DNA of 64,000 nucleotides. Origin: a virus. Taxonomy: Duplodnaviria; Caudoviricetes. A model generated the notes under the pieces. It saw nothing but the letters and a program-made list of their open reading frames with translations, had not been told where the DNA came from and searched no databases. Of this stretch, positions 1-62,161 are shown one piece after another. The first letter of the stretch is position 1, and each line of letters opens with the position of its first letter. The translations under genes and the position numbers were made by a program. The stretch lies in the IMG/VR virus record IMGVR_UViG_3300021255_002694; one strand, written 5' to 3'.

Positions 1-183
1 GCTTACTCCGACAGAATTGAGGTTACTGTGTATATCGAACATGGAGACTGGAAGCATGATCACCTGAGAATGGTGAGAAGTGTTGACAAGTTCGATCCTG
101 ACGAACACATTGAAACAGTAACCGATGAAGATGGTTCTGATTGCTATTCCGCCGAACATATTTTTGTATTTACAGGAGAGTGA
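1..183 (+). CDS. Hypothetical phage protein, 5'-truncated by window edge
   Basis: Frame 1 is open from base 1 to TGA at 181-183 (…HGDWKHDH…EDGSDCYSAEH…); the next gene's SD follows directly. Confidence 0.7.
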   Translation, partial: AYSDRIEVTVYIEHGDWKHDHLRMVRSVDKFDPDEHIETVTDEDGSDCYSAEHIFVFTGE

Positions 184-193
184 GGGATTATAT

Positions 194-514
194 ATGACCA
201 CCAATATCATTAACCTCAGAGATGGTGTTCTTGTTGACATCCAGACTGATCTTGATAATCAAATTTATGACTGGTATCTTGAAAATGGTGTCATTGATAC
301 CGTTGCATTTACCTTCAACAATGGTAATATTATCCGCTACAATGTCAATTATGGTATTGAGAGAACTGAAATGATGAAGTTTTTTGCCCGTGATTTCGAT
401 GGCATGACTATTAAGGAGTTCGGCATTGCATTTGCATACTTCCTCTACGACTACACTGGTGTCTATCCAGATGTTGACTTTGATCAGTACGGCACATATC
501 CTACTGAAATCTAA
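194..514 (+). CDS. Hypothetical protein
   Basis: ORF 125..514; ATG at 194 follows SD GAGGG. Confidence 0.7.
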   Translation: MTTNIINLRDGVLVDIQTDLDNQIYDWYLENGVIDTVAFTFNNGNIIRYNVNYGIERTEMMKFFARDFDGMTIKEFGIAFAYFLYDYTGVYPDVDFDQYGTYPTEI

Positions 515-29280: not shown

Positions 29281-29785
29281 TAAACACATTGTAGGAATTA
29301 CAGGCAAAAGTGGAGTTGGTAAATCAACGCTCTCTGAAATTTTATTTCCAGACCACTATCACATAGATTTTGACAAAGTAGGTCATATAGCAATCAGTAA
29401 AAATGCAGATAAACTAACTAAATCTCTAGGAATTGATGTTTCAAAAATTTCAAGAGTTGAACTTGGTGATATCGTTTTCACAGACCGTGATGCAATGCAC
29501 CTAGTTTCAGATTATATTTATTCTGATATGCGAATTATAATTGAAGATACTCTTGAAAAATATGATAAAGTTGTTCTTGATTGGATTCTCTTGCCTAAAA
29601 CAATTTACTTTGAAATGTGCAACTTAACAGTTCTTGTGACTGCTGATGAATCAGAACGAAAGAAAAGAGTTTTACTTAGAGATAAAATCAGTGAGGAATA
29701 TTTAGCAAAGAGAGATTCAGCCGGAATCAGCTATGAAGAAAATAACTTTGATCTTGTTATCAAAAATAATTATACTGTAAAATAA
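29267..29785 (+). CDS. coaE: Dephospho-CoA kinase
   Basis: IVGITGKSGVGKST, IDFDKVGH, SR.ELGDIVF, R..RV..RD. Confidence 0.82.
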   Translation: MMICNKHIVGITGKSGVGKSTLSEILFPDHYHIDFDKVGHIAISKNADKLTKSLGIDVSKISRVELGDIVFTDRDAMHLVSDYIYSDMRIIIEDTLEKYDKVVLDWILLPKTIYFEMCNLTVLVTADESERKKRVLLRDKISEEYLAKRDSAGISYEENNFDLVIKNNYTVK

Positions 29786-31362: not shown

Positions 31363-31380
31363 AATGTGAAAGGATTAGAT

Positions 31381-46604: not shown

Positions 46605-46615
46605 GGTGATTGTAT

Positions 46616-46924
46616 ATGAAATTGAGAATAAGAGAATCTTCGGTTGATCCGCTAAATACAGTAAATCAAAATATAATTGCGGTCTTAAATTCTATTGAAA
46701 GAAGATTAGACAATATTGAATTTGATACTGTTCAAATAGATGACGGATATCTTGAAGTAAAGGCTATGAATACAGAAACAGATCAAAGTTGTTCATATGT
46801 ACTAGATATCTATAAGGGAGAACTAAATGTTGCATGTGACTGGTCAGATCGTATTCATAAATTCAGTGATATTGATTCATTCAAGGATTGGCTTGAAGAT
46901 GATATTGCAGATAACTTAATCTAA
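46616..46924 (+). CDS. Acidic protein with MKLRIRES leader; paralog of the C-terminal domain of 48207
   Basis: HKFSDIDSFKDWLEDDI vs EKFYDFKSFIDWLDEDI. Confidence 0.72.
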   Translation: MKLRIRESSVDPLNTVNQNIIAVLNSIERRLDNIEFDTVQIDDGYLEVKAMNTETDQSCSYVLDIYKGELNVACDWSDRIHKFSDIDSFKDWLEDDIADNLI

Positions 46925-46934
46925 TATAATGATC

Positions 46935-46964
46935 TATCGGGACTAAATGTCCCGATATTTTTTT
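46935..46964 (+). terminator. Intrinsic terminator
   Basis: TATCGGGAC / GTCCCGATA followed by a T run. Confidence 0.85.
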
Positions 46965-46974
46965 GAAAAAATAC

Positions 46975-47003
46975 TTGACAAATCGCATGAAATATGGTAT
47001 ACT
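46975..47003 (+). promoter_or_regulatory. Consensus sigma-A early promoter
   Basis: TTGACA-17-TATACT with TG. Confidence 0.9.
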
Positions 47004-47093
47004 ATATTTAGATGGGTATGCAAAAAATATATCTGTATACAATTAAAAATATATGGAAATTTTAACTATATAATGTGAATTTGGAGGTAAATT

Positions 47094-47468
47094 ATGAATA
47101 CTGAATACATGAACACTTTGAAAGAAGAACTGTCTATTGTATCCGATATAATTAAGAAATATGGAGTCTATGATTTTGGATATCCTGAATCTGTAGATGC
47201 TATTGATTATTTTGTAATTATGGGCAATGGTGATCTTTTCTACATTTTTCCAGGATCGACATGTTTTCCTGATATTGATTTCAACGATATTGTTTATATT
47301 AGAAAACATGTTGCAGTTAATTCTATTGATACTGACTGTGTTAAAGAATATTTTGATTCCGATAATGGTTTGTTTAATTGTGACGATGATTACACCTATG
47401 ATTCCGATATCGCAAAAAGATACAATGCAGATTTTGATAAAGAGATTTTAACAGGTAACTATGACTAA
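47094..47468 (+). CDS. Promoter-proximal acidic protein (paralog of 5123)
   Basis: See 5123. Confidence 0.75.
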   Translation: MNTEYMNTLKEELSIVSDIIKKYGVYDFGYPESVDAIDYFVIMGNGDLFYIFPGSTCFPDIDFNDIVYIRKHVAVNSIDTDCVKEYFDSDNGLFNCDDDYTYDSDIAKRYNADFDKEILTGNYD

Positions 47469-47485
47469 TTAGGGATGTGGTTTAC

Positions 47486-48190
47486 ATGAAACTTATAGTA
47501 GAATCAATTAAACTTAAAATTTCAGAAAGCGTGAGTTTAGATGAGAGATTAGAAGATATTGGCAATTCAACATATTGTACAGATTCAGCACAAGATATTG
47601 CGAACTGGATTGTAAATAAACCAATGCCATACAGAGTTATATATGATAAAAAATATGATGTATGGTGCATTGCAGATGCAGAAGTTCAAACACATAAAGA
47701 TATGTCCATTGATATGTTTGATAGTAATTATCTGTATGGAATTGCAAAAGATTTAGATAATGATATTGAACTAATGCGAAAAGAAGATAATCTTAATGAT
47801 GGTTGGACAGATGCAGAAGTATATTCAGATTATCAGTTTGATCATTATAATATTAAAGGTTTAATTTTTATTCCTGAAAATATGGAATATAGAGATTATG
47901 AGGAATCTGGATTCTATTCCGCAAAAACAGAATTAGTAAATGGAACAATATTCACAACAAGACATAGTGAGTTTAGCGATTCTGGAATATTCAAACCCCT
48001 ATACATGAAACTAAAGATAATGGGAGCAATTAAGCCTGAAATAGAAGCATTATGGAAGAAAGCACTTCTACTTAAATTTGATCCAGATAAAATGCTGAAT
48101 TGGTTTTACGATACTGCTGGAAAACATGGATATTCAGATACCGAGATTAGCAGATTCATAGATGATCACCTAACTGACTATTTGAAATGA
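47486..48190 (+). CDS. Hypothetical protein with doubled leader MKLIVES-IKLKISES
   Basis: ATG at 47486. Confidence 0.72.
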   Translation: MKLIVESIKLKISESVSLDERLEDIGNSTYCTDSAQDIANWIVNKPMPYRVIYDKKYDVWCIADAEVQTHKDMSIDMFDSNYLYGIAKDLDNDIELMRKEDNLNDGWTDAEVYSDYQFDHYNIKGLIFIPENMEYRDYEESGFYSAKTELVNGTIFTTRHSEFSDSGIFKPLYMKLKIMGAIKPEIEALWKKALLLKFDPDKMLNWFYDTAGKHGYSDTEISRFIDDHLTDYLK

Positions 48191-48206
48191 AAGGAATTGA
48201 TTTAAC

Positions 48207-49154
48207 ATGATCGAACTATATGATGATGAACTATTTAATGAAGATGAACAATTTGATGAAGCATATGCACAATCACCGCAGATGATGACAGTAAGAAACC
48301 AACTCATGAATAAACTCGGTGATGATTTTAGTGCTGTCGGTGGATCAATGAATCCGAAGATTTTAATTCAATATAAACAGAATCCTAAGATTGATTTTGA
48401 AATAACTCCAAATGGAAAGAATATTGATATTGTAGGTCGAATTGATAAAGTTCCGGACACAATACATAAGAAACGTGGTATTGCATATATGAGAGCTGGA
48501 AATATTATATATGATTATATCATGGATTTTATTGATGATAATGAAGAAAGGATTGAAGAAAATATGAAACTTGAAATTAGAGAATCTACAAAAGAGGAAT
48601 ACTTTGTTGGTGTATGGGGCAAAGATAAGCCAAAATATGACCAAGCATACATTGAAACACGTACATTCAGCAATCGACAAGATGCTTGGGAATTCGCGCT
48701 GAAATGGAATCTCAAAGGCTACTATGTCAATTTTGCATCAGATGAAGAATATGATGACGAAGATGGAGAATACAGTGAATGCACCTACAAACCATATGAA
48801 ATGGAAAGAACATTTAATTCAGTTCATGAGGCATACGAAGATAGTGAAAACTTTTCATATCTGGATGATCCATTCTCAGAACTAAAGAAAGCATTAAATA
48901 ACTATTTTAATGAATTCCACGATCCAGTACATACAAAAGTATATTATAAAAATCTAAACTATGACGATATTTGGGCTATGGATATGAAGGTAAGTGCATA
49001 TGACGGCACTTCTGAAAAAACATATTCTCTTGAATTCAGAGATGCATATGACGGAATTTTGTATGTAAGACCTCAAAACGGTTCATGGGAAAAGTTCTAT
49101 GATTTTAAGTCTTTCATTGACTGGCTAGATGAGGATATAGAGGGATTGTTCTAA
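48207..49154 (+). CDS. Multi-domain acidic protein with internal MKLEIRES motif (48564)
   Basis: 315-aa ORF; apparent fusion of leader-bearing units. Confidence 0.72.
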   Translation: MIELYDDELFNEDEQFDEAYAQSPQMMTVRNQLMNKLGDDFSAVGGSMNPKILIQYKQNPKIDFEITPNGKNIDIVGRIDKVPDTIHKKRGIAYMRAGNIIYDYIMDFIDDNEERIEENMKLEIRESTKEEYFVGVWGKDKPKYDQAYIETRTFSNRQDAWEFALKWNLKGYYVNFASDEEYDDEDGEYSECTYKPYEMERTFNSVHEAYEDSENFSYLDDPFSELKKALNNYFNEFHDPVHTKVYYKNLNYDDIWAMDMKVSAYDGTSEKTYSLEFRDAYDGILYVRPQNGSWEKFYDFKSFIDWLDEDIEGLF

Positions 49155-49184
49155 AAATATCAAAAACAAAAGGACTTGATGTAA

Positions 49185-49487
49185 ATGTTTTTTAGGAAAA
49201 AAGATATAACGATAGAACATGTAAAGGATTTACTGTTGCCTCGTATAAATATAATGAATCCAAAAATAATTGCAGATGAATCTAATAGATTTCAAGTTGA
49301 CGTTTTTACTAAAGGTCGATCTATAGAAATCAAACTAAACTCTTTTCATAAAAATTCAGTTACAGTAGATATTATTGATCCATTTGGAATTGTTCGTATT
49401 CCGCGAAAGACATTTAAGAAGATGGATGATTTTAAGCTGTATATGCTTACAGACTTTACACGATTGTTAAATGAATACAATAGGTAA
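49185..49487 (+). CDS. Hypothetical protein
   Basis: ORF with SD AAGGA. Confidence 0.6.
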   Translation: MFFRKKDITIEHVKDLLLPRINIMNPKIIADESNRFQVDVFTKGRSIEIKLNSFHKNSVTVDIIDPFGIVRIPRKTFKKMDDFKLYMLTDFTRLLNEYNR

Positions 49488-49534
49488 AGAAAATATAGAC
49501 ATATTGATTCAAAATAAAAAACAATACTTAACAA

Positions 49535-49579
49535 TATTCATAGATCACTGATAACAGCGATCTATGAATAGTATTTTTT
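49535..49579 (+). terminator. Hairpin upstream of the 49597 cluster
   Basis: TATTCATAGATCACTG / CAGCGATCTATGAATA followed by a T run. Confidence 0.75.
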
Positions 49580-49596
49580 AGAAAGGAATTGATCGT

Positions 49597-49854
49597 ATGG
49601 TTAAACTTATAAATGAATCTATTGATGATGTTCAACCAGAGATTGTCAAGGATCGCGGCGGAAAAATATACAAAGAAACACGAGATAAACTTGATCGCAT
49701 AACTAACTATCATACTGGTGTACTTGATACATATGCATATAAATTAAATGAGAATGAAAAATCAGCAGATATGACACTGCTTAAATTAGTTAATGACGCA
49801 GTAGAAGCATTGAAACAGCTTGATGAATATAAACATATAATTCCACGTAAGTAA
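49597..49854 (+). CDS. Small protein with MVKLINES leader, tandem paralog of 49904
   Basis: PEIVKDRGGK.YKET..KLD shared. Confidence 0.78.
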   Translation: MVKLINESIDDVQPEIVKDRGGKIYKETRDKLDRITNYHTGVLDTYAYKLNENEKSADMTLLKLVNDAVEALKQLDEYKHIIPRK

Positions 49855-49903
49855 TTTATAAAAACAAATTAAACATAATGATATAGAAAGTAGTTGATTG
49901 TAT

Positions 49904-50176
49904 ATGATTAAAATTATAAATGAATCTATGGAAGACTTTATGAATGTTGAACCTGAAATTGTTAAAGATCGTGGCGGAAAGATGTATAAAGAAACACAAG
50001 AAAAATTAGACAAATTAAACCGTGGTATTTTTTCAGATAGATATATAGTAGAATTAAACAAAGAAAAATTAGCTGATAAAACATTAGTTGAGATAACAAA
50101 TGAAGCATATGAAGCATGTATGAAGTTATCAGATTATCTTTTGGAAATGCGCCGCAGACAGATGTTTGGTAAATAA
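49904..50176 (+). CDS. Small protein with MIKIINES leader
   Basis: See 49597. Confidence 0.78.
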   Translation: MIKIINESMEDFMNVEPEIVKDRGGKMYKETQEKLDKLNRGIFSDRYIVELNKEKLADKTLVEITNEAYEACMKLSDYLLEMRRRQMFGK

Positions 50177-50287
50177 TATTTATTTTTAGGTCATGGATAT
50201 GATTTTTAATAATGATCACATTGTATAAGATTATTCGCTGATTTGATAAAGTATATTGTGGATTAAGAAATAAAAGGTGTGATACAA

Positions 50288-50659
50288 ATGATCAAACTTA
50301 AAATATGTGAAAGTCATGATGGCTTAACCACATTTGATAAAGATTGGGATTTTATAGAAGCTGTGTTTACACAGGCAAGACCTGGGCATTTTGGAATAGA
50401 AATACCACTTGATAGATATGATGATCGCACACGGAAAAATATTGTATCAGATATTCGTAAGTTAGTAAAAGCACAAGACGGAATGACAGTTGAGGAAACG
50501 ATCATAGAAGAATATAATGATATAAGTCCTGACGATGAACTATTTGAATGGGTTTCCGATGTTCTTTATGATATTGAAGATAAGGCACATGATAGCAAAT
50601 ATGAGAACTTTGCTGACACAGCTAGCTTACTGATACGTGGTACACATTTTTATTGGTAA
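50288..50659 (+). CDS. Protein with MIKLKICES leader
   Basis: ATG at 50288 after AAGGTG. Confidence 0.7.
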   Translation: MIKLKICESHDGLTTFDKDWDFIEAVFTQARPGHFGIEIPLDRYDDRTRKNIVSDIRKLVKAQDGMTVEETIIEEYNDISPDDELFEWVSDVLYDIEDKAHDSKYENFADTASLLIRGTHFYW

Positions 50660-50721
50660 GTTTACAAAAAAAAACTACGATATAACACCACATGAATAGA
50701 GACTAGAGAGGTTGATTTATT

Positions 50722-51255
50722 ATGGCAGTTAGAAAGTTAAAAGAGAGTAAAACTCTTAAAAATTATGAAATAGCAGATATGCTTGTTGCAAATGGTTTTG
50801 GTAATGAAGAAGAAGGATACCTTGATTATTTTCTTCCAGATAATCCAAAATATGTTGCATCTGTAAATTTAGATGATATGGGTTCATATATTGATGACTT
50901 AGATGAGGGTGAACATGTATCACTACCGTATGCAAATAACGCTGATAGAAAAATTCTAAGAACTGAGGAAGATGTAGAGGAATTTCTCAGCTTTATTCAA
51001 GAACTAAATTACAGCGATATGTTTGAATCTAAGACACGTAAGACAGGAAAGAGAATTAAAGAAGAACTAGATTATGATGCAGTAACTATTGACGATATTG
51101 TAGATATATGTGATCACATAAAAGAAGATGCAGATAAAATAAAGAGAGTAGCATCAAATTATCCAGAAAACTATAATTCTGCTTGGAGAAATTATGCTGA
51201 GTTGAAAAACAAGTTAATTGACATAGAAACAATGCTGTATGAACTATGGAGATAA
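50722..51255 (+). CDS. Protein with MAVRKLKES leader and internal MFES…RIKEE linker
   Basis: ORF with SD GAGG. Confidence 0.72.
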   Translation: MAVRKLKESKTLKNYEIADMLVANGFGNEEEGYLDYFLPDNPKYVASVNLDDMGSYIDDLDEGEHVSLPYANNADRKILRTEEDVEEFLSFIQELNYSDMFESKTRKTGKRIKEELDYDAVTIDDIVDICDHIKEDADKIKRVASNYPENYNSAWRNYAELKNKLIDIETMLYELWR

Positions 51256-51411: not shown

Positions 51412-52974
51412 ATGCGCAAGCCTTTTTTACATGTCACGGAAAGGATGATTAAATTGTCTATTGAAATAAAGAGATCAGATAAATATGTAGATTATAATAT
51501 ATCCGCAACGAATAATAGAGGATATATTACTATTGATACTTCTGATTGGATAAATAAACCTTGGATGTTTTATGAACTTCCGGCGCTGAAATTTGAAATA
51601 TATACTGAAACAAATGGAGAATTAGTAAAATATCAAAATTTTACCAGAGAAATAAGAACATATAATCCAGTATATTCTCCATTAGGAGTATTAAATGTAA
51701 CGATTGATATTAGAAATGTTCCTGAAGAATTTATTTTAAGAATAACTCCTATATTTGATAATGATGCTATTGATGCTAGAAATATGTTAATTGAAAATGG
51801 AATTGAAAATGGTGATATTTGGGGATCAGATCAAGATGTTCCAACTCAACTATTTAATCTTGATCTTGAATTTATAGAATGTGATGGAGAGTATGTTCCA
51901 CCTACTCCACCAGTTCCTCCTACTCATGAAGAAACTATTACTGGTATTCCACCTATTACATTTGATGGAAGTACAGGTGAACCTCTTGTTTCTTGGACTA
52001 TTTTAGGTAATGGTCAACAAACAGGAACACCCTCACCAGATAACATTATAATGCCTGAATTTGTTGGTGTTAGGACTGCGAATCTGTTTGATAATCAGTC
52101 TCTTGCAAATGGATATATAAACTCATCCGGAAATGTTGCATCCGCAGGAAGCACAAAACATACTGATTACATTCCAGTTGATGCAGGAAGTACATACACG
52201 CTCACAACGGAAATAAAAATCGGTATCGGTCATTATCTCGCAATTTACAATGCAGAAAAGTCGAAAATCGGAAACACGGTTGATATGCGAAATTTAACGA
52301 CCGTAACAGTGAATATACCGGAAAACGGTGCATTTGTTCGCTTTTCGATGCAAAGCGGAGACATAACGAAAAATACAATGTTTAACAAAGGTTCTGCCAT
52401 CCCATACGAACCCTACGGCTGGAAAATCCCTCTCACCTGCGCTGGACAGACCGTTCCTGTTTATCTCGGACAGGTCAGCACGGTGCGGCGGATTAAGAAG
52501 TTGATATTCACAGGAGATGAATCATGGAACTATTCGACGCAAGGCAATAACACGAGAGCTTACACGCCGCAAATTGCGGAATGCTTATCCTTATCTCCAG
52601 CAATCTGTACGCATTTTGCATATAATGTTGCAAATGTCGGCTATCCAAGAAAAGATGAATTTGTAATCAATTCGTCAAAAGCAATCATATTCGGAATTGA
52701 CGGTTCTGTTTTTACAGACAAAACAGCGTGGACAACTTATCTGCAACAGCAGTACGCCGCCGGAACTCCTGTTACGGTGTGGTATGTTCTCGCAGAACCG
52801 GAAACCACAACCGTTAATGAGCCACTTGCAAAGATCGGAGACTATGCAGATGAACTTTCAAGTGCAGATGCAGGAGTTACAATTCCAACAACAGAAGGAC
52901 AGAATACTTTAACAGTTGATACTGATTTACAACCTAGCGAAATGACAATAACATACATAAAAGAAGGACAATAA
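51412..52974 (+). CDS. Tail-fibre/adhesin-like structural protein, single copy of the fibre module (true start probably TTG at 51454)
   Basis: N-domain paralogous to 53079 (ELPA, ITP.FD..A..A.N.LI..G); PYEPYG, RRIKKL, VWYVLA.P, EPLAKIGDYADEL and NTLTVDT shared with 54885. Confidence 0.75.
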   Translation: MRKPFLHVTERMIKLSIEIKRSDKYVDYNISATNNRGYITIDTSDWINKPWMFYELPALKFEIYTETNGELVKYQNFTREIRTYNPVYSPLGVLNVTIDIRNVPEEFILRITPIFDNDAIDARNMLIENGIENGDIWGSDQDVPTQLFNLDLEFIECDGEYVPPTPPVPPTHEETITGIPPITFDGSTGEPLVSWTILGNGQQTGTPSPDNIIMPEFVGVRTANLFDNQSLANGYINSSGNVASAGSTKHTDYIPVDAGSTYTLTTEIKIGIGHYLAIYNAEKSKIGNTVDMRNLTTVTVNIPENGAFVRFSMQSGDITKNTMFNKGSAIPYEPYGWKIPLTCAGQTVPVYLGQVSTVRRIKKLIFTGDESWNYSTQGNNTRAYTPQIAECLSLSPAICTHFAYNVANVGYPRKDEFVINSSKAIIFGIDGSVFTDKTAWTTYLQQQYAAGTPVTVWYVLAEPETTTVNEPLAKIGDYADELSSADAGVTIPTTEGQNTLTVDTDLQPSEMTITYIKEGQ

Positions 52975-53078: not shown

Positions 53079-54866
53079 ATGTCACAAACAACTCTATTAA
53101 GTTCTATAAATAGAACTACTGATTATCCTATTACTGTATCTTCTACAGCAGATAGTCATTGTGGTACTTTACAGTTAATTTTAGGTAGTGACTGGACTAA
53201 TCAAATGATACATGAACTTCCGGCAATAAATATATCTATTCTTACTGCGGATGGTTCTAAATTTCTATCATTTGATGTTAATATGTCTACAGTTAATGAA
53301 GAATTAAGAAATAAAGATAGATCACTTACTCCAACAGAACCATATTCTATTGCTGTTTATGATATTCCAAAAGATATTACTTTTTCTATAACTCCGCTTT
53401 TTGATCAATATGCTCTTAAAGCACATAATGATCTTATAAATGACGGCAATATAGAAATATTTGATACTTCTAATAAAGGAATTGTTGATACAGATTCAGA
53501 AAATTACGTATATAGACTTTGGACTACACCTACATCTACTTTTGATATTACTATTATATTTGATAATAGTAATGTTTCTTCTGGCGGTTCATCTGGCGGC
53601 GGTGGAGGTGGAGATACACCTACTGCGGCTGATATTTCTTATAGCAATACCACTTCTGGTTTATCAGCTACTAATGTTCAAGCAGCAATAGATGAAATTG
53701 ATAATGCAATAGATAATCTTCCAGAGCCTATGATATTCAAAGGTAGTCTTGGTACTGGCGGAACTATTGCAACATTACCAACAGCTTCTAATGATAATAA
53801 AGGATTTACTTATAAAGTAATTACTGCCGGAACATATGCAGGACAAACTGCTAAGATCGGAGATACTTTTATTTCTGACGGCACAGCTTGGGTTTTAATT
53901 CCATCAGGTGATGAACCAAGTGGAACAGTAACTAATGTTGCAGTTACAAGTACAGATGGAAGTGCAACAATAACAGGAAGTCCTATAACATCAAGTGGAA
54001 CTATTGATATTTCAGTTGTTACAGATTCAGCATTAAATGCAAATTCTACAAAACCAGTACAGAATAAAATTGTTACATCAGCAATCAATGAAAAACTTAA
54101 TATAGAAGACGCTGTTGGTAAAAATGTTACTGGTACAGAATATACTATTGACGGACAGACTGTTACTGCCGGAGACGGTGCTGAGATTTTTAATTCGTAT
54201 GATGGCAATTCACAGAATAAGGCTGCTGGACAGTGTTCTCATGCAGAAGGTGCGTATAATACTGTCACTGGTACATACGCCCATGTAGAGGGAATGGGAA
54301 ATACGGCATCTGGTGATGGCGCACATGCAGAAGGTTCTGGTGGAGTACGAGCAACAGGTACAGGCTCTCATGCAGAAGGTCAAGGAAACGTCGCTTCTGG
54401 TGTTAATGCCCATGCCGAGGGAGGCGGAACAACCGCATCTGCTATTTACTCACATGCAGAGGGATCGGGAACATCAGCATCCGGTCAAAACTCACATGCC
54501 GAAGGATCAGGAACAGTGGCTTCTGGTAATAGCGCTCATGCAGAGGGAGGTAGTTCGGTAGCATCAGGTGATAGCGCACATGCAGAAGGTAATTATACAA
54601 TCGCTGCATCGTCATATCAGCATGTCCAAGGTAAATGTAACGTCGCGGATGCAAACAACACTTACGCTTTTATAATCGGAAATGGTACTGCTGATAATGC
54701 TCGTCATAATGCATTTGCTATTGATTGGAATGGAAATATATATGTTAATAACTCTGCAACTGGTGTAAATGTAGAAACACTTTCTTCAATTCTAAATCCT
54801 ATTTCTGAATCTGAATACGATTCTTTAACTACAAAAGATAAACCTTTATATTTTATATATGATTAA
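53079..54866 (+). CDS. Tail fibre/spike with YadA-head-like 14-residue SHAEG repeats
   Basis: About 10 repeats of (S/A)HAEGxxTxASG; IIGNGT…NAFAIDWNGN; Gly-rich linker. Confidence 0.82.
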   Translation: MSQTTLLSSINRTTDYPITVSSTADSHCGTLQLILGSDWTNQMIHELPAINISILTADGSKFLSFDVNMSTVNEELRNKDRSLTPTEPYSIAVYDIPKDITFSITPLFDQYALKAHNDLINDGNIEIFDTSNKGIVDTDSENYVYRLWTTPTSTFDITIIFDNSNVSSGGSSGGGGGGDTPTAADISYSNTTSGLSATNVQAAIDEIDNAIDNLPEPMIFKGSLGTGGTIATLPTASNDNKGFTYKVITAGTYAGQTAKIGDTFISDGTAWVLIPSGDEPSGTVTNVAVTSTDGSATITGSPITSSGTIDISVVTDSALNANSTKPVQNKIVTSAINEKLNIEDAVGKNVTGTEYTIDGQTVTAGDGAEIFNSYDGNSQNKAAGQCSHAEGAYNTVTGTYAHVEGMGNTASGDGAHAEGSGGVRATGTGSHAEGQGNVASGVNAHAEGGGTTASAIYSHAEGSGTSASGQNSHAEGSGTVASGNSAHAEGGSSVASGDSAHAEGNYTIAASSYQHVQGKCNVADANNTYAFIIGNGTADNARHNAFAIDWNGNIYVNNSATGVNVETLSSILNPISESEYDSLTTKDKPLYFIYD

Positions 54867-54884: not shown

Positions 54885-57800
54885 ATGCTTAAAAGCATTG
54901 TTAATGGTGCTGAACATGATATTGTAAGTATTCCTATGAAAGGGAAGAATTTATCTTCATTTGATGCAATCACATATCTAAACGATGATTCCTATTATGT
55001 GTCTTACCGTATACTCAATTCGATACCAGAGGGTTCATATACATTGTCATATTTCGTTGATGTTGATCCTAGTGTGGATTCGCTTGCTGCATCCATCGGT
55101 GTCGGTTCAACGATATATGAGAAAGATATCAAAATTGTTAATAGCATTGATCCTGGATATATAAATATACCATTTTCAATAACAGATGCCGACGCTGGTA
55201 AAAATTTATTTGTGCGGTTTGTAAGAAGTGGATCAAAATTTACTGCAACAATCACCGTCACAAAAGTCATGCTAAACACAGGTTCAACTGCATTACCATA
55301 TGAACCATATGGATATCAAAATGGATGGGAAGTAAGAGATAATCAAAATAGACTTATATGGGGAAGAGAAGATGAACTTCAAACAACTACAGGAACTCTA
55401 CCATTTAAAGGATATGGATTAGATATTAAAGAATATAGTATAGACGGTAATATGGTTCAAGCGGCGGAAAAAGAATATTCTATTACTGGTACATCTCCTT
55501 TAGATTTTCAAAGTAATGGTTCTAATGCTACTATTTCTATTTCCGGAAATGAAACACAAGCATCTAATCAATCATATACTACTTCTTGTACTTCTCCATT
55601 ATCTTTTAATGCAGATGGAACTAATCTTACTGCATTATCTATGGATGGAAATATGAATCAAGCTAGTAGTCAACCTTATACTGTTTCTGGTACTTCACCG
55701 ATCAGTTTTATGAATAATGGTACTGCTATTGATTATACTGTTTCCGGAAATATGTCACAATCTGGTACTCCTACTCCTACATCTCCTATTACTCCACAAG
55801 AATGTGGAGAGAGAACTAATCAGCTTATACCTTATCCATATTATAGTGCAGATGGAGTATATGATGGGATTACATTCACTACAGATGGAAATAAGATAGT
55901 TGCTAATGGTACAACATCGACAGGATATAATTTCTATCTTTGGAGAGTTGATAAATTTCCGGCTGGAACATATACTCTCAGCGTGACTGGAACACATACA
56001 GGTGCTAGTATTTATGTAAGAGATGTTACAAATTCAACTACTATTGTAGGTATTTTCGGTGGTCAGACTGGTGATCGTCAAATATCATTTACGACAACAG
56101 AAGAATTGCAAGTATATGTTTATATAAATTCCAGCGGTACGGGAACTGTTGATTTTGACTGTTCTATAATGTTAAATGAGGGTTCAACGGCATTGCCATA
56201 TGAGCCAAATCTATATAAAGTACCTCTAACAATAGCCGGAAATACACAAAATATTTATATTAAAGAGCCATTAAGAAAAATTGGTGATTATTCTGATACT
56301 GTTAATTCAGATGGTAGTGTTACAAGAGTTATTAAGAAAATTGTATTGACAGGTGCGGAATCTGAGTGGTCTAGTGTTGGAGGTCAGGCACCATTTCTAT
56401 TAACTATATCCGGTTATTCTGAAATTTCAAAATCAGTTCCGTATTATATGAGTTCACATTTCAAGCCTATTGCATATGATGATCTATGGGGAACAAATGA
56501 TAACTTTATTGTGACATATCAAACTGGTTTTCGGTTTAAGTACAGTACGTTAGGTACTGATCTAAATGATTTTAAGACATGGCTTTCAACACAGTATGAA
56601 AATAATAATCCAATAACAGTTTGGTATGCACTTCAAATTCCACAAACAGATACAGCAACAGTACCAACAATAACACCAACATCAGGAAATAATACATTAT
56701 CAGTAGATACTACTTTAGCTCCATCTAATATTACAGTTACTTCTAATTCTTCTGTTTTTCCTGAAAATCCTATTACTCCTATTGAATGTGGTGTTCTAAG
56801 TGAAAATCTATTCGATAATAACCAGACCACAACGAATGAGAACGGTGCTGAAAGACCTGGTGTAGAACTTCCAGTCGGAACATACTCTATCTATAATACA
56901 TCAGGTCAAGCTGTGTATTATCGTATCGGTGATAGTGGAACTGGCGCACAAGTAAACAATGGTAATTCAAAAGCAAACATAGTAGCGAATGATACATTGT
57001 ATGTGTGGCAATATCCTAAAAAAGACGGTGTTATGGTTATTGAGGGTGCTACCGCACCGACTGAATATGAACCTTATGGAAAATATAAAATTCCAGTAAC
57101 AGTAGGTTCAACTACCAAAAATATATTTATAAATCAGCCACTTAGAAAAATAGGTAATTATAGTGATAGTATTGGTAGTGATGGTGTTGTTACAAGGAAT
57201 ATTAAGAAGTTGGTGCTTGATGGTACGGAGAACTGGTCATCATATAGCGAAGTTGTTTATTTACAAGACATAATTGATTATGCAAAAATTGATAATATTA
57301 TTTGCATGTGTACGCACTATGAGCCGCAAACAAATGTTGACGGAGTTGCTGAAACAGATACAGGGCATATAGCATTTGGTAAAAGTTCAAACTATAGACT
57401 TAACATTCATGATGCAAATATAAACAACGCAACAGATTATAAACTATTTCTTGCTGACGAATACTCAGCCGGTCATCCAGTAGAAGTCTGGTACATATTA
57501 GCAACACCAGATACAACAGAAACAACTACTATACCAACAATATCAACAGTAAATGGAGCAAATACTCTTACTACAGGAACTCCTATAACTCCATCTAATA
57601 TTACTATTTCTACTTCTTCTTCTGTCTATCCTAAGAATCCTATATATCCAGAAGAATGTGGAGATAGGACTGGTAATGTTCTTGATCTTGATGCATACCT
57701 TAAAAGAGATAATAACGGATATACAAAAAGCGGTAGCACTTATACTATCCCAATGCAAGCATCTTTGTTTGCAAATCCTTGGTATTTTTCCAATGAGGAT

Positions 57801-60800
57801 GTTCCGATAAGTATAAGTGGCACTATGCAAACATTAACTGGTACAAATATCCGAATTTATATTGTAAAACGTGATGGAGCTGTTTCTGGTTCTATTGCAC
57901 TAGGCGGAACTGGAAATGTAACAAAGACAGAAAACAGGTTAGGTGCCGGAATAAAGTTCGATTATACCTCTATTGGAACATGCACTGTATCTAACCTTAT
58001 GGTCAATTTCGGATCAACTGCACTTCCTTATGAACCATATGGATATAAAATACCAGTAACAATAGGTAGCAATACTAATTATATCTATACTAAAGAACCT
58101 ATTAGAAAAATTGGTAATTATGCTGATGTGGTTAATAGTGATGGTAGTATTACTAGATATATTAAGAAGATCGAGTTAAATGGAACAGAAAATATCATTC
58201 TTGGTTCTCCACAATCCGGAGGAAATGTATTTTCTATAACTGATCAAGATACAATAACAAGCAATGGTTCGTATTCAATATCTAATTACTATCGAAACGT
58301 ATATGGTAATAGTGGCGAGTACACATACATTTACAATGGAAGGATTATCCTACTAGATAAAAGCCATAGTACAGTCACATCATTTAAACAGTGGTTATCT
58401 GATGAATACAATTCGGGTAATCCAGTATGTGTGTGGTATGTAATGCAAACTCCAACAGCAGAACAAACAACAATACCAACACTAACAACAGTAAATGGAA
58501 CAAATACAGCAACAATAGGAACTACTCTAGCCCCATCAAGTATTACTATAAATGCCACTTCTAAAGTATATCCTAATAATCCTATTATTCCTGAATTTTG
58601 TGGAGTTAGGACAGAGAATCTTATTGATGCTACGATGTATGACAATCTTGCAAAATCTGTAGCATATCTATCTATGCTAGTATCCGTTCCGATTGTAACA
58701 TTGACGTCACCAGAAGGACTATACACAAGAGTTGTTTGGACACAATCAATGAATCCTGATACAAGAATCCATGAAAGTAACTGGATAACATCTGGAAACA
58801 GTGCAACATTTGATCTTGCATCATATAGTGATGCTGATTGTTTTAAGATAGAGTTTCGCAATGTCGAATATTCAATTTTAACTGATGAAGATATTGCACG
58901 TAGATTCAATATCATGCTTAACACTGGTTCTACTGCACTTCCTTATGAACCATATGGATATAAAATATCTTTTAATAATAATGGAGAGAATTTGTTTGAT
59001 TGTGATAGAACAGATGGCATTATTGATAATTCGTATATCAGAAAATCAGACAGTGAAATCGTAACAGACACAGACTACTATATCAGTTATCCTATTTATG
59101 TTTCTGAGAATGTGACATATACATGGAGATTTGATAGTGACACAAGTACAACACATTCAGCACCTACTGTCGGATTTTATGATTCATTAGATAACATGAT
59201 AGGAACTGCACCGCATGGTAACGGACTAACATATTTTTCATTCACTACTCCAAATGGGTGTAAATACATTCGTGCGTCTGTTTATAAGCATAACAACTTT
59301 CAGAGAGAAGCAATGCTTAATCTCGGATCAACACCATTACCATATTCTCCATATCTAAATAAAACAACTCCTATATATCTTAGTGAAGTTCCTACTATAA
59401 GAAGAATTAAGAAATTGGTGTTGACAGGAGATGGAGAATATCAAAATTACTCATATGATGGTACTAACGGTGTCCGAATCTTGAATATGTTGAAAACAAC
59501 ATACAAAAGAGCAGATGGGTTATGCAATATTTGTAAAGTATCAACAGTCGCAGGTATACGTCATTGTTTATGGATAGGTTCTGGTGGTGGTGATCCTCAC
59601 TTGTATTTTATATCCATACTTTCAGATATGGGACTATCCGATGCATCTGAGTTTAAATCATGGGTTGCACAACAATATCAAAACGGTACTCCGGTTACAA
59701 TATGGTATGCACTTGCAAATCCGGAAACAGGAATAGTAAATGAACCATTAGCAAAAATAGGAAATTATGCAGATGAACTAACAGAAATATCTGTTCATAA
59801 TCTTTCTGCTCCATTATATGGTATTGGAGATTATAAAGATATTCTAAATCTTTCTACTGGTGTTTTGACTAGGAAGATTAGGAAATTGGTGTTGGACGGC
59901 GTAAACGATGGAGAATGGAAAAAATCTTCAACGAGAACAGGCTCATTCTATTTGAATGTTGGAGTGAACGCAATCACTTCTTTAGGCTTATGTGACCGTG
60001 CTGTTAATGTGGATACAATCAGTCAGTACGATTCCATTGGAAAAATGTTCGTTGAATCAAGCGGTTCATCAAAGTTGATAAACTTGTGGCTTTTCGATAC
60101 CAATATATCGCTTGATGATTTCAAAGCATTTCTCGCCGCCCAGTACGCAAACGGAACCCCAGTCACGGTCTGGTACGTGTTGAATACTCCTAAAACCGAA
60201 ACTGTCACAGTTCCAACAGGAATGACAGGAGAAATAGAAGGATATTTAACACAGATCAGTACACCAACTCCGGAACATCCAAGTATACCGAAATGGAATG
60301 GAAAAGAAGAAACTGGTGGTACATATGCAGTTACAGTTTATGATCTTCCTGAAATTCCTACAACTACAGGAAAAAATACTTTGACAGTAGATACAACTCT
60401 AGCACCATATGATGTAACTATAAATGGACATATAAGATACACATATTGGGGTAAAATACGTGAAGATGTTAGAAGTGGATTGGCTCAAACAAAATTCCCA
60501 GTTGGAACAATCTTATATGATAACGAAGATGCAACAACAGGAAGAGCATTTCAAGTTGTAGGATATGATAAACATTTTGATCCATCACTAACAGCACGAG
60601 GATTCACTCATAGTATGACATTGTGTCAGTTAAAACTATCCGGACCGTGGCAATATGACGCAATAGAAGCATTTTTATATACAACTGTTGAAATGCAACC
60701 TGGAACATATAAATTCAAAATACCTAACTATGATACAACATATGGCGGTAATAAAACATACTATTTTACTTCTACTGCAACCGTTCCAGTTGATAGTCAA

Positions 60801-61556
60801 ATTGTATTAAAATGGGATTATCAAAAACCACCTGCTTCTGTAACTGCATATGCTGGTCCAAATCCGCAAACAAATACAACAGCAATAACAGGATTTAACG
60901 CTTTAACACTTACAGAATGGGTTGAGGGTGAATCACCGGAAGCTATTGATTTAGGAACAATAAAACTAGCAAACAATGATCCAGACAGTGCATATGGTAA
61001 ACTAAATCATATTCAACGTGCAAGATATGGTTCAAACAATTATTATCAATCTGGTTTGAGACAGTTATTGAATACAGACCTTGCGGCAAATAACTGGTGG
61101 CATCCAGCTACTATATTTGATAGACCATATGCAAATAGAACAACAAATGGTTATTTAAGATCACTAAATGAAGATTTTATAAATGTACTAGCAACACCTG
61201 AAATTACTAATATAACAAATAATGTATTTGAATATCCATCATTAGACGGAAGAACATTTGCACTAAATACAGAATATAAGATAAATACAGATAAGGTATT
61301 CTTACTATCTCATACAGAAGTTGGTCTATCTTCATCACCGAATGTTGGAACAGTATTAGATTATTATAGTACACATAATACAAATAATGATAGAATAAAG
61401 TATAGAATTGATAATGGAAATGCTTATCATTGGTGGTTTAGAACTCCTTACCCGTCTTACGCTCACGATTTCCGGTATTGTAGCACTTCGGGTGCTTTGG
61501 ACGTCAGCCATGCTCTCAATTACCTGTGCGTCGCCCCCGCTCACATCATCCAGTAA
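54885..61556 (+). CDS. Large tail-fibre/adhesin with repeated modules and a C-terminal CLec (DUF6273-like) DGR target domain
   Basis: Repeated TGSTALPYEPYG / EPLRKIG.Y.D / VWY.L.TP modules; C-terminus RYGSNNY..S.LRQ.LN…DKVFLLS..EVG…WWFRTP…VAPA.II. Confidence 0.85.
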   Translation: MLKSIVNGAEHDIVSIPMKGKNLSSFDAITYLNDDSYYVSYRILNSIPEGSYTLSYFVDVDPSVDSLAASIGVGSTIYEKDIKIVNSIDPGYINIPFSITDADAGKNLFVRFVRSGSKFTATITVTKVMLNTGSTALPYEPYGYQNGWEVRDNQNRLIWGREDELQTTTGTLPFKGYGLDIKEYSIDGNMVQAAEKEYSITGTSPLDFQSNGSNATISISGNETQASNQSYTTSCTSPLSFNADGTNLTALSMDGNMNQASSQPYTVSGTSPISFMNNGTAIDYTVSGNMSQSGTPTPTSPITPQECGERTNQLIPYPYYSADGVYDGITFTTDGNKIVANGTTSTGYNFYLWRVDKFPAGTYTLSVTGTHTGASIYVRDVTNSTTIVGIFGGQTGDRQISFTTTEELQVYVYINSSGTGTVDFDCSIMLNEGSTALPYEPNLYKVPLTIAGNTQNIYIKEPLRKIGDYSDTVNSDGSVTRVIKKIVLTGAESEWSSVGGQAPFLLTISGYSEISKSVPYYMSSHFKPIAYDDLWGTNDNFIVTYQTGFRFKYSTLGTDLNDFKTWLSTQYENNNPITVWYALQIPQTDTATVPTITPTSGNNTLSVDTTLAPSNITVTSNSSVFPENPITPIECGVLSENLFDNNQTTTNENGAERPGVELPVGTYSIYNTSGQAVYYRIGDSGTGAQVNNGNSKANIVANDTLYVWQYPKKDGVMVIEGATAPTEYEPYGKYKIPVTVGSTTKNIFINQPLRKIGNYSDSIGSDGVVTRNIKKLVLDGTENWSSYSEVVYLQDIIDYAKIDNIICMCTHYEPQTNVDGVAETDTGHIAFGKSSNYRLNIHDANINNATDYKLFLADEYSAGHPVEVWYILATPDTTETTTIPTISTVNGANTLTTGTPITPSNITISTSSSVYPKNPIYPEECGDRTGNVLDLDAYLKRDNNGYTKSGSTYTIPMQASLFANPWYFSNEDVPISISGTMQTLTGTNIRIYIVKRDGAVSGSIALGGTGNVTKTENRLGAGIKFDYTSIGTCTVSNLMVNFGSTALPYEPYGYKIPVTIGSNTNYIYTKEPIRKIGNYADVVNSDGSITRYIKKIELNGTENIILGSPQSGGNVFSITDQDTITSNGSYSISNYYRNVYGNSGEYTYIYNGRIILLDKSHSTVTSFKQWLSDEYNSGNPVCVWYVMQTPTAEQTTIPTLTTVNGTNTATIGTTLAPSSITINATSKVYPNNPIIPEFCGVRTENLIDATMYDNLAKSVAYLSMLVSVPIVTLTSPEGLYTRVVWTQSMNPDTRIHESNWITSGNSATFDLASYSDADCFKIEFRNVEYSILTDEDIARRFNIMLNTGSTALPYEPYGYKISFNNNGENLFDCDRTDGIIDNSYIRKSDSEIVTDTDYYISYPIYVSENVTYTWRFDSDTSTTHSAPTVGFYDSLDNMIGTAPHGNGLTYFSFTTPNGCKYIRASVYKHNNFQREAMLNLGSTPLPYSPYLNKTTPIYLSEVPTIRRIKKLVLTGDGEYQNYSYDGTNGVRILNMLKTTYKRADGLCNICKVSTVAGIRHCLWIGSGGGDPHLYFISILSDMGLSDASEFKSWVAQQYQNGTPVTIWYALANPETGIVNEPLAKIGNYADELTEISVHNLSAPLYGIGDYKDILNLSTGVLTRKIRKLVLDGVNDGEWKKSSTRTGSFYLNVGVNAITSLGLCDRAVNVDTISQYDSIGKMFVESSGSSKLINLWLFDTNISLDDFKAFLAAQYANGTPVTVWYVLNTPKTETVTVPTGMTGEIEGYLTQISTPTPEHPSIPKWNGKEETGGTYAVTVYDLPEIPTTTGKNTLTVDTTLAPYDVTINGHIRYTYWGKIREDVRSGLAQTKFPVGTILYDNEDATTGRAFQVVGYDKHFDPSLTARGFTHSMTLCQLKLSGPWQYDAIEAFLYTTVEMQPGTYKFKIPNYDTTYGGNKTYYFTSTATVPVDSQIVLKWDYQKPPASVTAYAGPNPQTNTTAITGFNALTLTEWVEGESPEAIDLGTIKLANNDPDSAYGKLNHIQRARYGSNNYYQSGLRQLLNTDLAANNWWHPATIFDRPYANRTTNGYLRSLNEDFINVLATPEITNITNNVFEYPSLDGRTFALNTEYKINTDKVFLLSHTEVGLSSSPNVGTVLDYYSTHNTNNDRIKYRIDNGNAYHWWFRTPYPSYAHDFRYCSTSGALDVSHALNYLCVAPAHIIQ
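61431..61556 (+). repeat. Putative DGR variable region (VR)
   Basis: Abrupt GC rise; variable positions are NNC/NNT codons (TAC, CAC, GAT, TTC, AGC, GAC, GTC, CAT, CTC…) as expected from AAC/AAT templates; ends in GC-rich GTCGCCCCCGC. Confidence 0.75.
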
Positions 61557-61628: not shown

Positions 61629-61703
61629 ATGTCAGTTCCAGTATTTAAAAGAACAGAAAATAAACTCCAAGCATTAAAAGATACAATTACAATGACTTCA
61701 TAA
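61629..61703 (+). pseudogene. avd: Truncated Avd (DGR accessory protein) N-terminal stub
   Basis: SD GAAAGG then MSVPVFKRTENKLQALKDTITMTS*, resembling the MSV.k.kR.e.kl start of Bacillota-phage Avd proteins, in the canonical position after the target. Confidence 0.6.
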
Positions 61704-61707
61704 AAAA

Positions 61708-61723
61708 TGTTCCATGTGGAACA
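61708..61723. promoter_or_regulatory. parS-like palindrome
   Basis: TGTTCCATGTGGAACA, one mismatch to the parS palindrome TGTTCCACGTGGAACA, extended by AAAA/TTTT. Confidence 0.6.
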
Positions 61724-61778
61724 TTTTACAGATTATATAAACAATAAATAATCAAAAATATAATACACAATTACTTTA

Positions 61779-61843: not shown

Positions 61844-62161
61844 ATGGTAAAGAAAGTAAACAGAAATGAGTCTATTGGCTATAAACGCAGATCAAGAAGA
61901 ATGAATGAGAGTAATGGTACTATAAACGATCTTGAATTTTATATAGCACAAATTCATGATACCGCCGATGAAATAGCTAGATTATCAGATCATGCTACAG
62001 ATATTGTTAATAATTATCAAGAAATTGAAGATGATTCCAGAGAACTAAGAAGAACAGAAAACGATCTTTTAGGGTTTGTAAAAGAGTTACAAATGTGGAA
62101 AGAAGGATTTGCAAATTATATCGGTCAAATGGAAGAATTGGTTGACAACGTACTGCTGTAA
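61844..62161 (+). CDS. Coiled-coil protein with basic leader containing two xNES sites
   Basis: MVKKVNRNES…RRSRRMNES. Confidence 0.72.
   Translation: MVKKVNRNESIGYKRRSRRMNESNGTINDLEFYIAQIHDTADEIARLSDHATDIVNNYQEIEDDSRELRRTENDLLGFVKELQMWKEGFANYIGQMEELVDNVLL

What the first reader, a model, noticed from the sequence alone, without database searches (positions are those of the whole stretch)
55380..60430. Russian-doll (recursively nested) module architecture in the giant fibre protein
Seen: the single module in 51412..52974 runs N-part (ITG.PP..F…GN..Q), then GTP.P.N.I.PE..G, then body, then NTLTVDT..PS..TI. In the 2223-aa protein, four N-parts are stacked first (GNMVQA ~55450, GNETQA ~55550, GNMNQA ~55650, GNMSQS ~55750), and only the fourth continues GTPTPTSPITPQECG. 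After each closing NT…TxxPSxIT segment the chain resumes mid-module (PENPITPIECG 56760, PKNPIYPEECG 57630, PNNPIIPEFCG 58570), with the final closure at ~60380-60425. The order is N1 N2 N3 N4 C4 C3 C2 C1. Inference: each module was inserted into the same loop of the previous one, so the chain runs out and back to form a stalk instead of beads on a string.
Basis: partly seen in the sequence, partly recalled or inferred. Interest (0 to 1): 0.8.

Follow-up and report, generated by a model that had tools for sequence, protein, structure and literature searches.

The report
Self-nested sugar-binding modules in phage protein
A 2,223-residue surface-type protein of an uncultured giant phage is built from four copies of one sugar-binding module inserted one inside another like Russian dolls, and related phages carry one to five such levels; the design is rare, but it is already known from cyanobacterial RNA polymerase.

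Summary
Confirmed. ORF 54885-61556 reads N1 N2 N3 N4 C4 C3 C2 C1. The repeated unit is a jelly-roll beta-sandwich whose first three strands (N-part) are completed by strands at the module's far end; a CBM-like domain and a 'head' domain sit in its loops. Evidence for nesting: (1) AlphaFold of a fragment holding N1-N4, C4 and C3 folds only N3 and N4 and leaves N1 and N2 without strands; (2) close orthologues have depth 1, with N1 running straight into C1; (3) 27 nested proteins (this one plus 26 homologues, depth 2-5) have equal N and closure counts, and N types keep their nested partner across depths; (4) one relative is split by an endonuclease gene into an N-only and a C-only ORF. Tandem forms also exist. 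This gene is a mosaic: a nested cassette recombined into a depth-1 allele. 'Stalk' geometry and virion location are inferred, not shown. Recursive self-insertion is published for the Si3 arm of cyanobacterial RNA polymerase, and this scan has reported it in other phage fibres with other folds. New here: this fold, compound modules, and depth varying among close relatives.

The parts
54885..61556 (+). ORF of the 2223-aa nested protein (P0001)
54939..55313 (+). N-terminal CBM-like domain, outside the nest (aa 19-143)
   Evidence: same boundary motifs (..NL / PYEPYG) as the other CBM-like domains
55380..55460 (+). N1: first three strands of the outermost jelly-roll (partner C1)
   Evidence: HMM 40 bits; depth-1 orthologues join N1 to C1; unstructured when C1 is absent
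55476..55559 (+). N2 (partner C2)
   Evidence: HMM 30 bits; type tracking with P0143 and P0010; unstructured when C2 is absent
55575..55661 (+). N3 (partner C3)
   Evidence: HMM 39 bits; three strands in the model; innermost level in depth-3 P0143, next to the C3-type closure
55677..55760 (+). N4 of the innermost, uninterrupted module
   Evidence: HMM 36 bits; model range 104..466 (N4 to closure 4) aligns to monocin chain 9j1k_K 136-272, Z 7.0
55761..56744 (+). C4: GTP.P loop, linker, CBM-like domain (55818-56213), hairpin, head domain, closure (56670-56744)
   Evidence: CBM matches CBM16/CBM4, Z 9-10.5
56754..57614 (+). C3: linker, CBM-like domain, head, closure (57540-57614)
57624..58556 (+). 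C2: linker, CBM-like domain, head, closure (58482-58556)
58566..60428 (+). C1: linker, CBM-like domain, second CBM-like domain inserted at the hairpin tip (58983-59354), head, inserted mini-module with a second head (59793-60350), closure (60354-60428)
   Evidence: scaffold segments 66-87% identical to depth-1 orthologues
55416..58944 (+). Approximate limits of the nested cassette that replaces about 0.5 kb of the depth-1 allele of a close relative (L035)
   Evidence: blastn blocks end at 55415 and resume at 58945; protein mosaic table
60435..61553 (+). C-terminal region with DUF6273 (61014-61550, C-type-lectin-like) and a DGR variable region (about 61450-61546)
   Evidence: Pfam E 8e-17; 78% match to the template repeat of L035; C-lectin assignment from PMC10743442
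61629..61700 (+). Remnant (first 24 codons) of the Avd-like DGR gene; the rest, the template repeat and most of the reverse transcriptase are deleted
51412..52974 (+). Neighbouring gene with one uninterrupted copy of the module (51913-52965), used as the reference
   Evidence: AlphaFold2 pLDDT 95, pTM 0.88

Best explanation
The protein is a multivalent adhesion (host- or glycan-binding) protein of a jumbo phage, built on four stacked jelly-roll scaffold domains. Each scaffold domain is discontinuous: three strands come from an N-part and the rest from the matching C-part, and the next module is inserted in the loop right after the third strand (Q | GTP.P). Only N4+C4 is continuous; N3, N2 and N1 are completed in reverse order as the chain returns. 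SHOWN (sequence, homologues, model): order, pairing and insertion site. INFERRED: (a) a module's two termini lie together at one pole while the insertion loop follows three strands and so should lie at the opposite pole; nesting therefore stacks modules end to end through a fixed two-stranded joint, whereas tandem fusion cannot extend the chain without a long linker. (b) Each level displays a CBM-like domain and a variable head sideways, giving six CBM-like domains, five heads and one C-lectin-like domain. (c) Depth changes by double-crossover recombination in the conserved scaffold motifs, which swaps contiguous inner blocks and keeps N and C counts equal. (d) The protein sits on the virion surface.
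For: Single module: model pLDDT 95; a domain spanning model residues 1..351 aligns to jelly-rolls such as chains 9j1k_K (monocin tip) and 6v8i_AC (phage 80alpha baseplate), Z 5.7-5.8, 89-95 residues, so N-part and closure share one domain. Truncation model: N3 and N4 fold, N1 and N2 do not, although the alignment favoured N1 with closure 3 (26 rows against 7 for N3). Depth-1 orthologues P0019, P0159, P0360 are 91-97% identical over aa 144-178 and 59-66% over aa 1230-2223, with N1 followed directly by C1. 27 proteins nested at this loop are all balanced: 17 at depth 2, 3 at depth 3, 6 at depth 4, 1 at depth 5. Using only single and tandem modules as reference, nested pairing outranks parallel pairing in 24 of 27; across depths 24 of 31 N matches keep the nested partner against 6 of 31 for parallel. 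Joint lengths are tight (N-N period 31-35 aa in 54 of 56 cases, closure-to-linker 25 or 27 aa in 49 of 51) while tandem linkers vary from 5 to 26 aa. A natural split gives ORFs with N=2/C=0 and N=0/C=2 around an endonuclease gene. Binding role: CBM folds Z 8-10.5 including Tuc2009 BppA; CBMs and heads mostly under 40% identical between relatives while scaffold segments are 60-100%; DGR next to orthologues; structural neighbours in BFVD are named tail fibre, distal tail, head fibre and neck passage proteins.
Against: No coordinates or contact maps were returned, so N3-C3 pairing in the model is read from strand pattern and confidence, not from contacts; N2-C2 and N1-C1 were not modelled. For depth 3 and above, nested pairing was not the top-ranked permutation in the single-module test (for example rank 4 of 24 for this protein, 15 and 16 of 24 for P0003 and P0004). 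The homologues are related, so counts are not independent. One short ORF (P0155, on a 719-nt contig ending in adapter sequence) has two N-parts and no closure, and P0301 stops mid-module near a contig end. Fold matches of the scaffold are middling (Z 5.7-7.0). No tail or head genes were recognised nearby, so virion location rests on analogy.
Confidence: 0.82

Rival explanations
1. Nested topology, but compact or flexible rather than a straight stalk: modules pack as a cluster or helical bundle, with the CBMs around it.
For: Shape was not measured; each module is about 330 aa with two large side domains that could pack on neighbours; tandem versions of the same module exist in 15 proteins, so a linear stack is not needed for function.
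Against: Short, length-conserved two-stranded joints; pTM 0.74 for two nested modules suggests a defined relative orientation; strand parity puts the insertion loop opposite the termini (inference).
Confidence: 0.25
2. The N-parts form their own beta-solenoid or sandwich and the C-parts are self-contained tandem domains (beads on a string).
For: The four N-parts are a regular 31-35-aa tandem repeat, as in solenoids; P0155 has stacked N-parts with no closure.
Against: N1 and N2 have no secondary structure when their partners are absent, while N3 and N4 fold; N-part and closure are one domain in the single module; counts match in 27 proteins; no complete protein has C-parts without N-parts, except the split gene whose N-parts are in the upstream ORF.
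Confidence: 0.03
3. N-parts complete C-parts, but not in strict nested order: parallel or interchangeable pairing, or swapping between chains of an oligomer.
For: N-parts are homologous and could be exchangeable; the split gene implies complementation in trans can work; Si3 shows domain swapping among nested domains (PMC11515920); the permutation test is not decisive at depth 3 and above.
Against: Linkers of about 5 aa on both sides fix the geometry; loss of N4 goes with loss of the first C-part in P0143, loss of level 2 of P0008 goes with the fourth C-part; parallel pairing fits only 6 of 31 cross-depth matches.
Confidence: 0.08
4. Architecture as described, but the protein is not a virion adhesin (for example a secreted or host-surface protein made during infection).
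For: The gene lies among unannotated genes, not in a recognised tail module; no trimerisation or anchoring domain was identified.
Against: DGR-targeted C-lectin-like end in orthologues, typical of phage receptor-binding and decoration proteins (PMC10743442); structural neighbours are virion proteins; a PHROG 'Hoc-like head decoration' family matches the C-terminal domain.
Confidence: 0.15

Closest known systems
Si3 insertion of cyanobacterial RNA polymerase beta' (recursively inserted HABAS/SBHM domains; PMC11515920, PMC10895346)
   Same: Copies of one domain inserted into each other, so that several domains are built from distant parts of the chain and give an elongated arm.
   Different: Different context (RNA polymerase against phage surface protein) and apparently a different fold (jelly-roll here); here the nested unit is a compound module of about 330 aa carrying two side domains, nesting is a clean single series at one loop, and depth varies from 1 to 5 among relatives.
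Evolved Dit proteins of Gram-positive siphophages (CBM inserted in the galectin domain; PMC9692632, PMC9437275)
   Same: A jelly-roll scaffold with a CBM inserted in a loop; the scaffold's best phage matches are the C-terminal halves of chains 9j1k_K and 6v8i_AC, which I take from memory to be Dit-type galectin domains (Z 5.7-7.0); an Atlas cluster with Sipho_tail/SPP1_Dit families on 13-27% of members aligns over the whole module (TM 0.59).
   Different: No belt domain, no tail-module context, and the scaffold is inserted into copies of itself, which I did not find described for Dit.
BppA of lactococcal phage Tuc2009 (PDB 5e7t)
   Same: Accessory phage adhesion protein; its CBM region aligns to the CBM of module 4 (Z 8.5, 126 residues).
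   Different: Single 286-aa protein with one CBM; only the CBM and adjoining strands matched, not the scaffold or head.
Split domains of RTX adhesins (AhLap; PMC12077191)
   Same: A beta-sandwich is interrupted so that a ligand-binding domain buds out of it; termini of the inserted domain lie together.
   Different: There the split domains project unrelated domains and are strung in tandem; here the split domain hosts further copies of itself four deep.
DGR-targeted DUF6273/C-lectin phage proteins, tentaclins (PMC10743442)
   Same: DUF6273 C-lectin-like domain with a variable region diversified by a retroelement in orthologues.
   Different: Tentaclins have the lectin at the N-terminus followed by tandem Ig domains; here it is C-terminal and sits at the base of the nest, and this genome has lost the retroelement.

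Membership tests
Recursively self-inserted domain architecture (as in Si3) | Homologous domains interrupted by a further copy of the same domain | tested here: met
Recursively self-inserted domain architecture (as in Si3) | Direct structural contacts between distant halves (N1-C1, N2-C2, N3-C3) | tested here: inconclusive
   N4-C4 spanned by one fold match; N3-C3 inferred from strands and pLDDT; no contact map available
Si3 / HABAS (SBHM) family proper | SBHM fold of the repeated domain | tested here: inconclusive
   fold searches returned jelly-rolls and CBMs; an unlisted family is not excluded
Si3 / HABAS (SBHM) family proper | Insertion within an RNA polymerase beta' subunit | tested here: not met
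   the host protein has no polymerase domain; Pfam gives only DUF6273
Evolved Dit | N-terminal belt domain (Sipho_tail, PF05709) | tested here: not met
   no Pfam hit at E 0.1 or in ten homologues at E 5; the N-terminal domain is CBM-like
Evolved Dit | Galectin-like jelly-roll domain | tested here: inconclusive
   Z 5.7-7.0, rmsd 2.7-3.1, 89-96 residues to 9j1k_K and 6v8i_AC, tied with CBM35 and nucleoplasmin; no sequence match to PDB
Evolved Dit | CBM inserted in a loop of that domain | tested here: met
   CBM at model 55-160 inside a domain spanning 1..351
Evolved Dit | Gene between tape-measure and Tal genes | tested here: not met
   flanked by a 595-aa gene of unknown function, the single-module gene and small ORFs
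BppA-like accessory adhesin | BppA-type CBM | tested here: met
   5e7t_B Z 8.5, model 153-285, chain 28-198; other CBM families score as high
BppA-like accessory adhesin | Binding to BppU in a baseplate tripod | not testable with these tools
   no partner identified
DGR target protein | C-terminal C-lectin-like domain with a variable region | tested here: met
   DUF6273 E 8e-17; in orthologous loci 28 of 40, 23 of 29 and 21 of 24 VR/TR mismatches fall at template adenines
DGR target protein | Template repeat, Avd and reverse transcriptase in the same genome | tested here: not met
   none in the 64-kb window; cassette deleted next to the gene; the rest of the genome was not available
Tentaclins | N-terminal C-lectin followed by tandem Ig domains | tested here: not met
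   lectin-like domain is C-terminal

The most novel reading that the evidence does not exclude
A phage family uses self-nesting of a detached Dit-galectin-like module as an adjustable, genetically swappable arm: depth (1-5) sets reach and valency, inner blocks are exchanged as single cassettes, at least three different loops accept a whole module, and the two halves can even be made as separate chains that zip together after a homing endonuclease splits the gene.
Probability: 0.45. Interest if true: 0.75.

Novelty: new variant of a known kind. Interest (0 to 1): 0.6.

Why it matters
Repeat proteins are almost always tandem; self-nesting has few documented cases and its evolution is hard to study because intermediates are missing. 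This family supplies them: single, tandem and nested forms of depth 2-5, near-identical genomes with depth 1 and depth 4 alleles, and a naturally split gene. That makes it directly testable how nested proteins fold (inside out, with three N-parts waiting up to 1,650 residues for their partners), how balance is kept during recombination, and whether nesting is a way to extend a domain whose termini lie together. It also explains why such proteins escape domain annotation, and offers a natural scaffold for multivalent display.

Tried and rejected
Complex prediction of N1 (aa 160-197) with C1 (aa 1225-1852), both without alignments, gave no verdict; not used as evidence. Pfam, PHROG and PDB sequence searches name no family for the module. 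Foldseek on PDB gave nothing at E 0.001 or better. VIA searches of the nested model were crowded by CBM hits, so no row spanning N3 to closure 3 could be read; SBHM domains and the non-CBM part of BppA were not among the listed rows. My starting guess that the module is BppA-like held only for the CBM. Direct-coupling analysis of N against closure was weak (Meff 93): one pair above all shuffles (N2-CL24, 3.65 against at most 2.42) and two more consistent with antiparallel first and last strands. Apparent exceptions checked: P0007 and P0153 stop at an in-frame TAG and continue in frame with the missing parts; P0010's third N-part was missed by the HMM and is visible by eye; P0144 and P0287 are two halves of one split gene; P0152 and P0038 were not checked; P0155 and P0301 remain unexplained. 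Annotated phage genomes hold only the CBM part. No whole genome is held for this window. Paper searches for recursive or nested insertion in phage proteins found no description of this family; the library lacks most subscription journals. Sequencing reads were not examined.
Full report
Context. The window is a stretch of an AT-rich phage genome (GC 30-38%; NAD-dependent DNA ligase and RNA ligase genes). Orthologous genes lie on metagenome contigs of 217-320 kb, so it is a jumbo phage; Atlas neighbours of the module are from tailed phages and Bacillota, which suggests but does not show the host. The finding lies in ORF 54885-61556 (2223 aa, P0001); a neighbour, 51412-52974 (P0002), carries one copy of the module.

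Observation. The N-parts were not distinguishable from chance with a single query, so I built profiles of the N-part, the P.NPI.P linker (PL) and the closure (CL) from about 100 single-module homologues. P0001 parses as N166 N198 N231 N265 PL293 CL596 PL621 CL886 PL911 CL1200 PL1225 CL1824, at 19-40 bits against shuffled maxima of about 5 bits.

What the module is. AlphaFold2 models the single module at pLDDT 95, pTM 0.88. The structural search finds two things: a CBM-like domain at model residues 55-160, and a second domain whose aligned residues run from the first to the last residue of the module and match jelly-roll sandwiches (monocin tip chain 9j1k_K 136-270, Z 5.8; phage 80alpha baseplate chain 6v8i_AC 168-312, Z 5.7; CBM35; nucleoplasmin). 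So the three N-terminal strands and the two closing strands belong to one discontinuous scaffold, from whose loops a CBM and a variable 'head' domain bud out. The scaffold's family is not settled: these Z-scores are middling, and that the two phage chains are Dit-type galectin domains is my recollection.

I folded aa 160-915, which holds all four N-parts but only C4 and C3. Nesting predicts that N4 and N3 fold and N1 and N2 do not; an independent N-domain predicts that all four fold. The model (pLDDT 85.7, pTM 0.74) has no strand at all in its first 70 residues (N1, N2; block pLDDT 39-77) and the full three-strand pattern in N3 and N4. The alignment was biased against this outcome, with 26 rows linking N1 to closure 3 and 7 linking N3. 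In this model 9j1k_K aligns from N4 to closure 4 (104..466, Z 7.0). Contacts could not be read, so N3-C3 is inferred from pattern.

Natural experiments. (1) Depth-1 orthologues P0019, P0159 and P0360 have the same start, the same C1 with its extras and the same C-terminal domain, and in them N1 runs straight into the loop and linker of C1. (2) Among 360 proteins from four searches, 27 are nested at this loop, at depth 2 (17), 3 (3), 4 (6) and 5 (1), each with equal numbers of N-parts and closures; 15 others are plain tandem, and P0006 and P0010 mix both. (3) Sequence types travel in nested pairs: the N3 type sits with the second closure at depth 4 and with the first closure in depth-3 P0143, which lacks exactly N4 and C4; the N2 type sits with the third, second and first closure in P0001, P0143 and P0010. 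Across depths 24 of 31 matches fit nested and 6 fit parallel pairing; with single and tandem modules as the only reference, nested beats parallel in 24 of 27 proteins but is the best permutation only at depth 2. These proteins are related, so the counts are not independent trials. (4) In locus L041 a GIY-YIG/NUMOD3 endonuclease ORF splits a depth-2 gene at a hairpin tip of the inner module into an ORF with two N-parts and no closure and an ORF with two closures and no N-part; 10 nt separate the first stop from the endonuclease start and the endonuclease stop overlaps the next start, leaving no visible room for an intron. A gene fragmented by an endonuclease whose products still assemble is described for a phage nrdA (PMC3045599, abstract). 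Whether the L041 halves assemble is untested.

How depth changes. The window is 80-94% identical in DNA to L035 over long blocks on both sides, yet L035 carries the depth-1 allele; identity stops at 55415 and resumes at 58945. At protein level aa 144-178 are 91-97% like the depth-1 alleles, the N-parts from aa 179 are 84-100% like the deep alleles P0003-P0005, and scaffold segments from aa 1493 onward are again 66-96% like the depth-1 alleles. P0001 is therefore a recombinant. In a nested gene any inner block is contiguous DNA, so one double crossover in the conserved motifs can add or remove levels while keeping the balance (inference). CBMs and heads are mostly under 40% identical between relatives, with sporadic high matches, as expected of cassettes shuffled between conserved boundary motifs. 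Whole modules also insert at other loops: in place of the CBM (P0029, P0047) and at the hairpin tip where C1 holds its second CBM (P0015, P0016, P0286).

How it likely works. The first and last strands of a module end together, and the insertion loop follows the third strand, so by strand parity it should be at the opposite pole (inference). Nesting would then stack scaffolds end to end via a two-stranded joint of fixed length (N period 31-35 aa; closure-to-linker 25 or 27 aa), whereas tandem forms use linkers of 5-26 aa. The tip of such an arm is module 4, in the middle of the gene; both termini, including the lectin-like domain, stay at the base. CBM folds (CBM16, CBM4, BppA; Z 8-10.5), structural neighbours annotated as tail, head and neck fibre proteins, and a retroelement beside orthologues with adenine-specific VR/TR differences point to host or glycan binding on the virion surface. 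Position on the particle, oligomeric state and ligands are unknown.

Comparison with what is known. Recursive insertion of homologous domains is published for Si3 of cyanobacterial RNA polymerase; split domains that project binding domains are known in RTX adhesins; CBM insertion in a galectin domain defines evolved Dits. The protein works like the first architecture using parts like the last, but it is not a member of Si3, Dit or tentaclin families (see membership tests). Earlier notes of this scan report self-nesting in other phage fibres, with beta-barrel or CBM-like units; none matched this sequence, and I did not test their proteins. I found no paper describing this family.

Verdict. Observation confirmed, nesting strongly supported (about 0.9), stalk shape and virion role likely but inferred. 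New variant of a known kind; interest 0.6.

Noticed in passing
window 61629-61746: Frozen diversity-generating retroelement: only 24 codons of the Avd-like gene and the last bases of the RT gene remain; about 1.7 kb with the template repeat is deleted relative to L035.
   Followed up: yes
L041 1234-5352: Depth-2 nested gene split in two by a free-standing GIY-YIG/NUMOD3 endonuclease ORF at a hairpin tip of the inner module; Avd-like and RT-like genes follow.
   Followed up: partly
window 31366-32559: Adenylosuccinate-synthetase-like gene (PF00709; phrog_1211 '2-aminooxy adenylosuccinate synthetase', E 6e-35) with a GDESKG motif; PurA or PurZ not resolved.
   Followed up: partly
window 28738-29785: Adjacent cytidylyltransferase-like (CoaD-like) and dephospho-CoA kinase genes, suggesting phage-encoded coenzyme A synthesis steps.
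   Followed up: no
window 46610-51255 and 61844-62161: A run of small acidic ORFs sharing an N-terminal motif like KL.I.ES, sometimes repeated inside the ORF; from memory this resembles prohead-protease or capsid-targeting signals of internal head proteins.
   Followed up: no
window 54222-54590: 14-residue repeat (HAEG..T.ASG) eight or more times in the 595-aa gene upstream, a likely beta-solenoid fibre segment (phrog_25468).
   Followed up: no
L032 1499-5452: P0007 ends at an in-frame TAG just inside its fourth closure, and all three called genes on this contig end in TAG and extend under code 15; possible TAG recoding or a nonsense variant.
   Followed up: partly
L038 207-656: P0155: two N-parts fused to 68 unrelated residues and a stop, on a 719-nt contig that ends in adapter sequence; chimera or real unbalanced variant.
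   Followed up: partly
proteins P0292, P0293 (no locus fetched): A closure is followed directly by the third N strand, suggesting a further self-insertion site between the second and third strands.
   Followed up: no
proteins P0006, P0008, P0009, P0156 (P0008 = L004 10001-16705): Second joint type: N period 31-32 aa and closure-to-linker 27 aa with the G.PTP loop kept on the return side; may be an independent origin of nesting at the same loop.
   Followed up: partly
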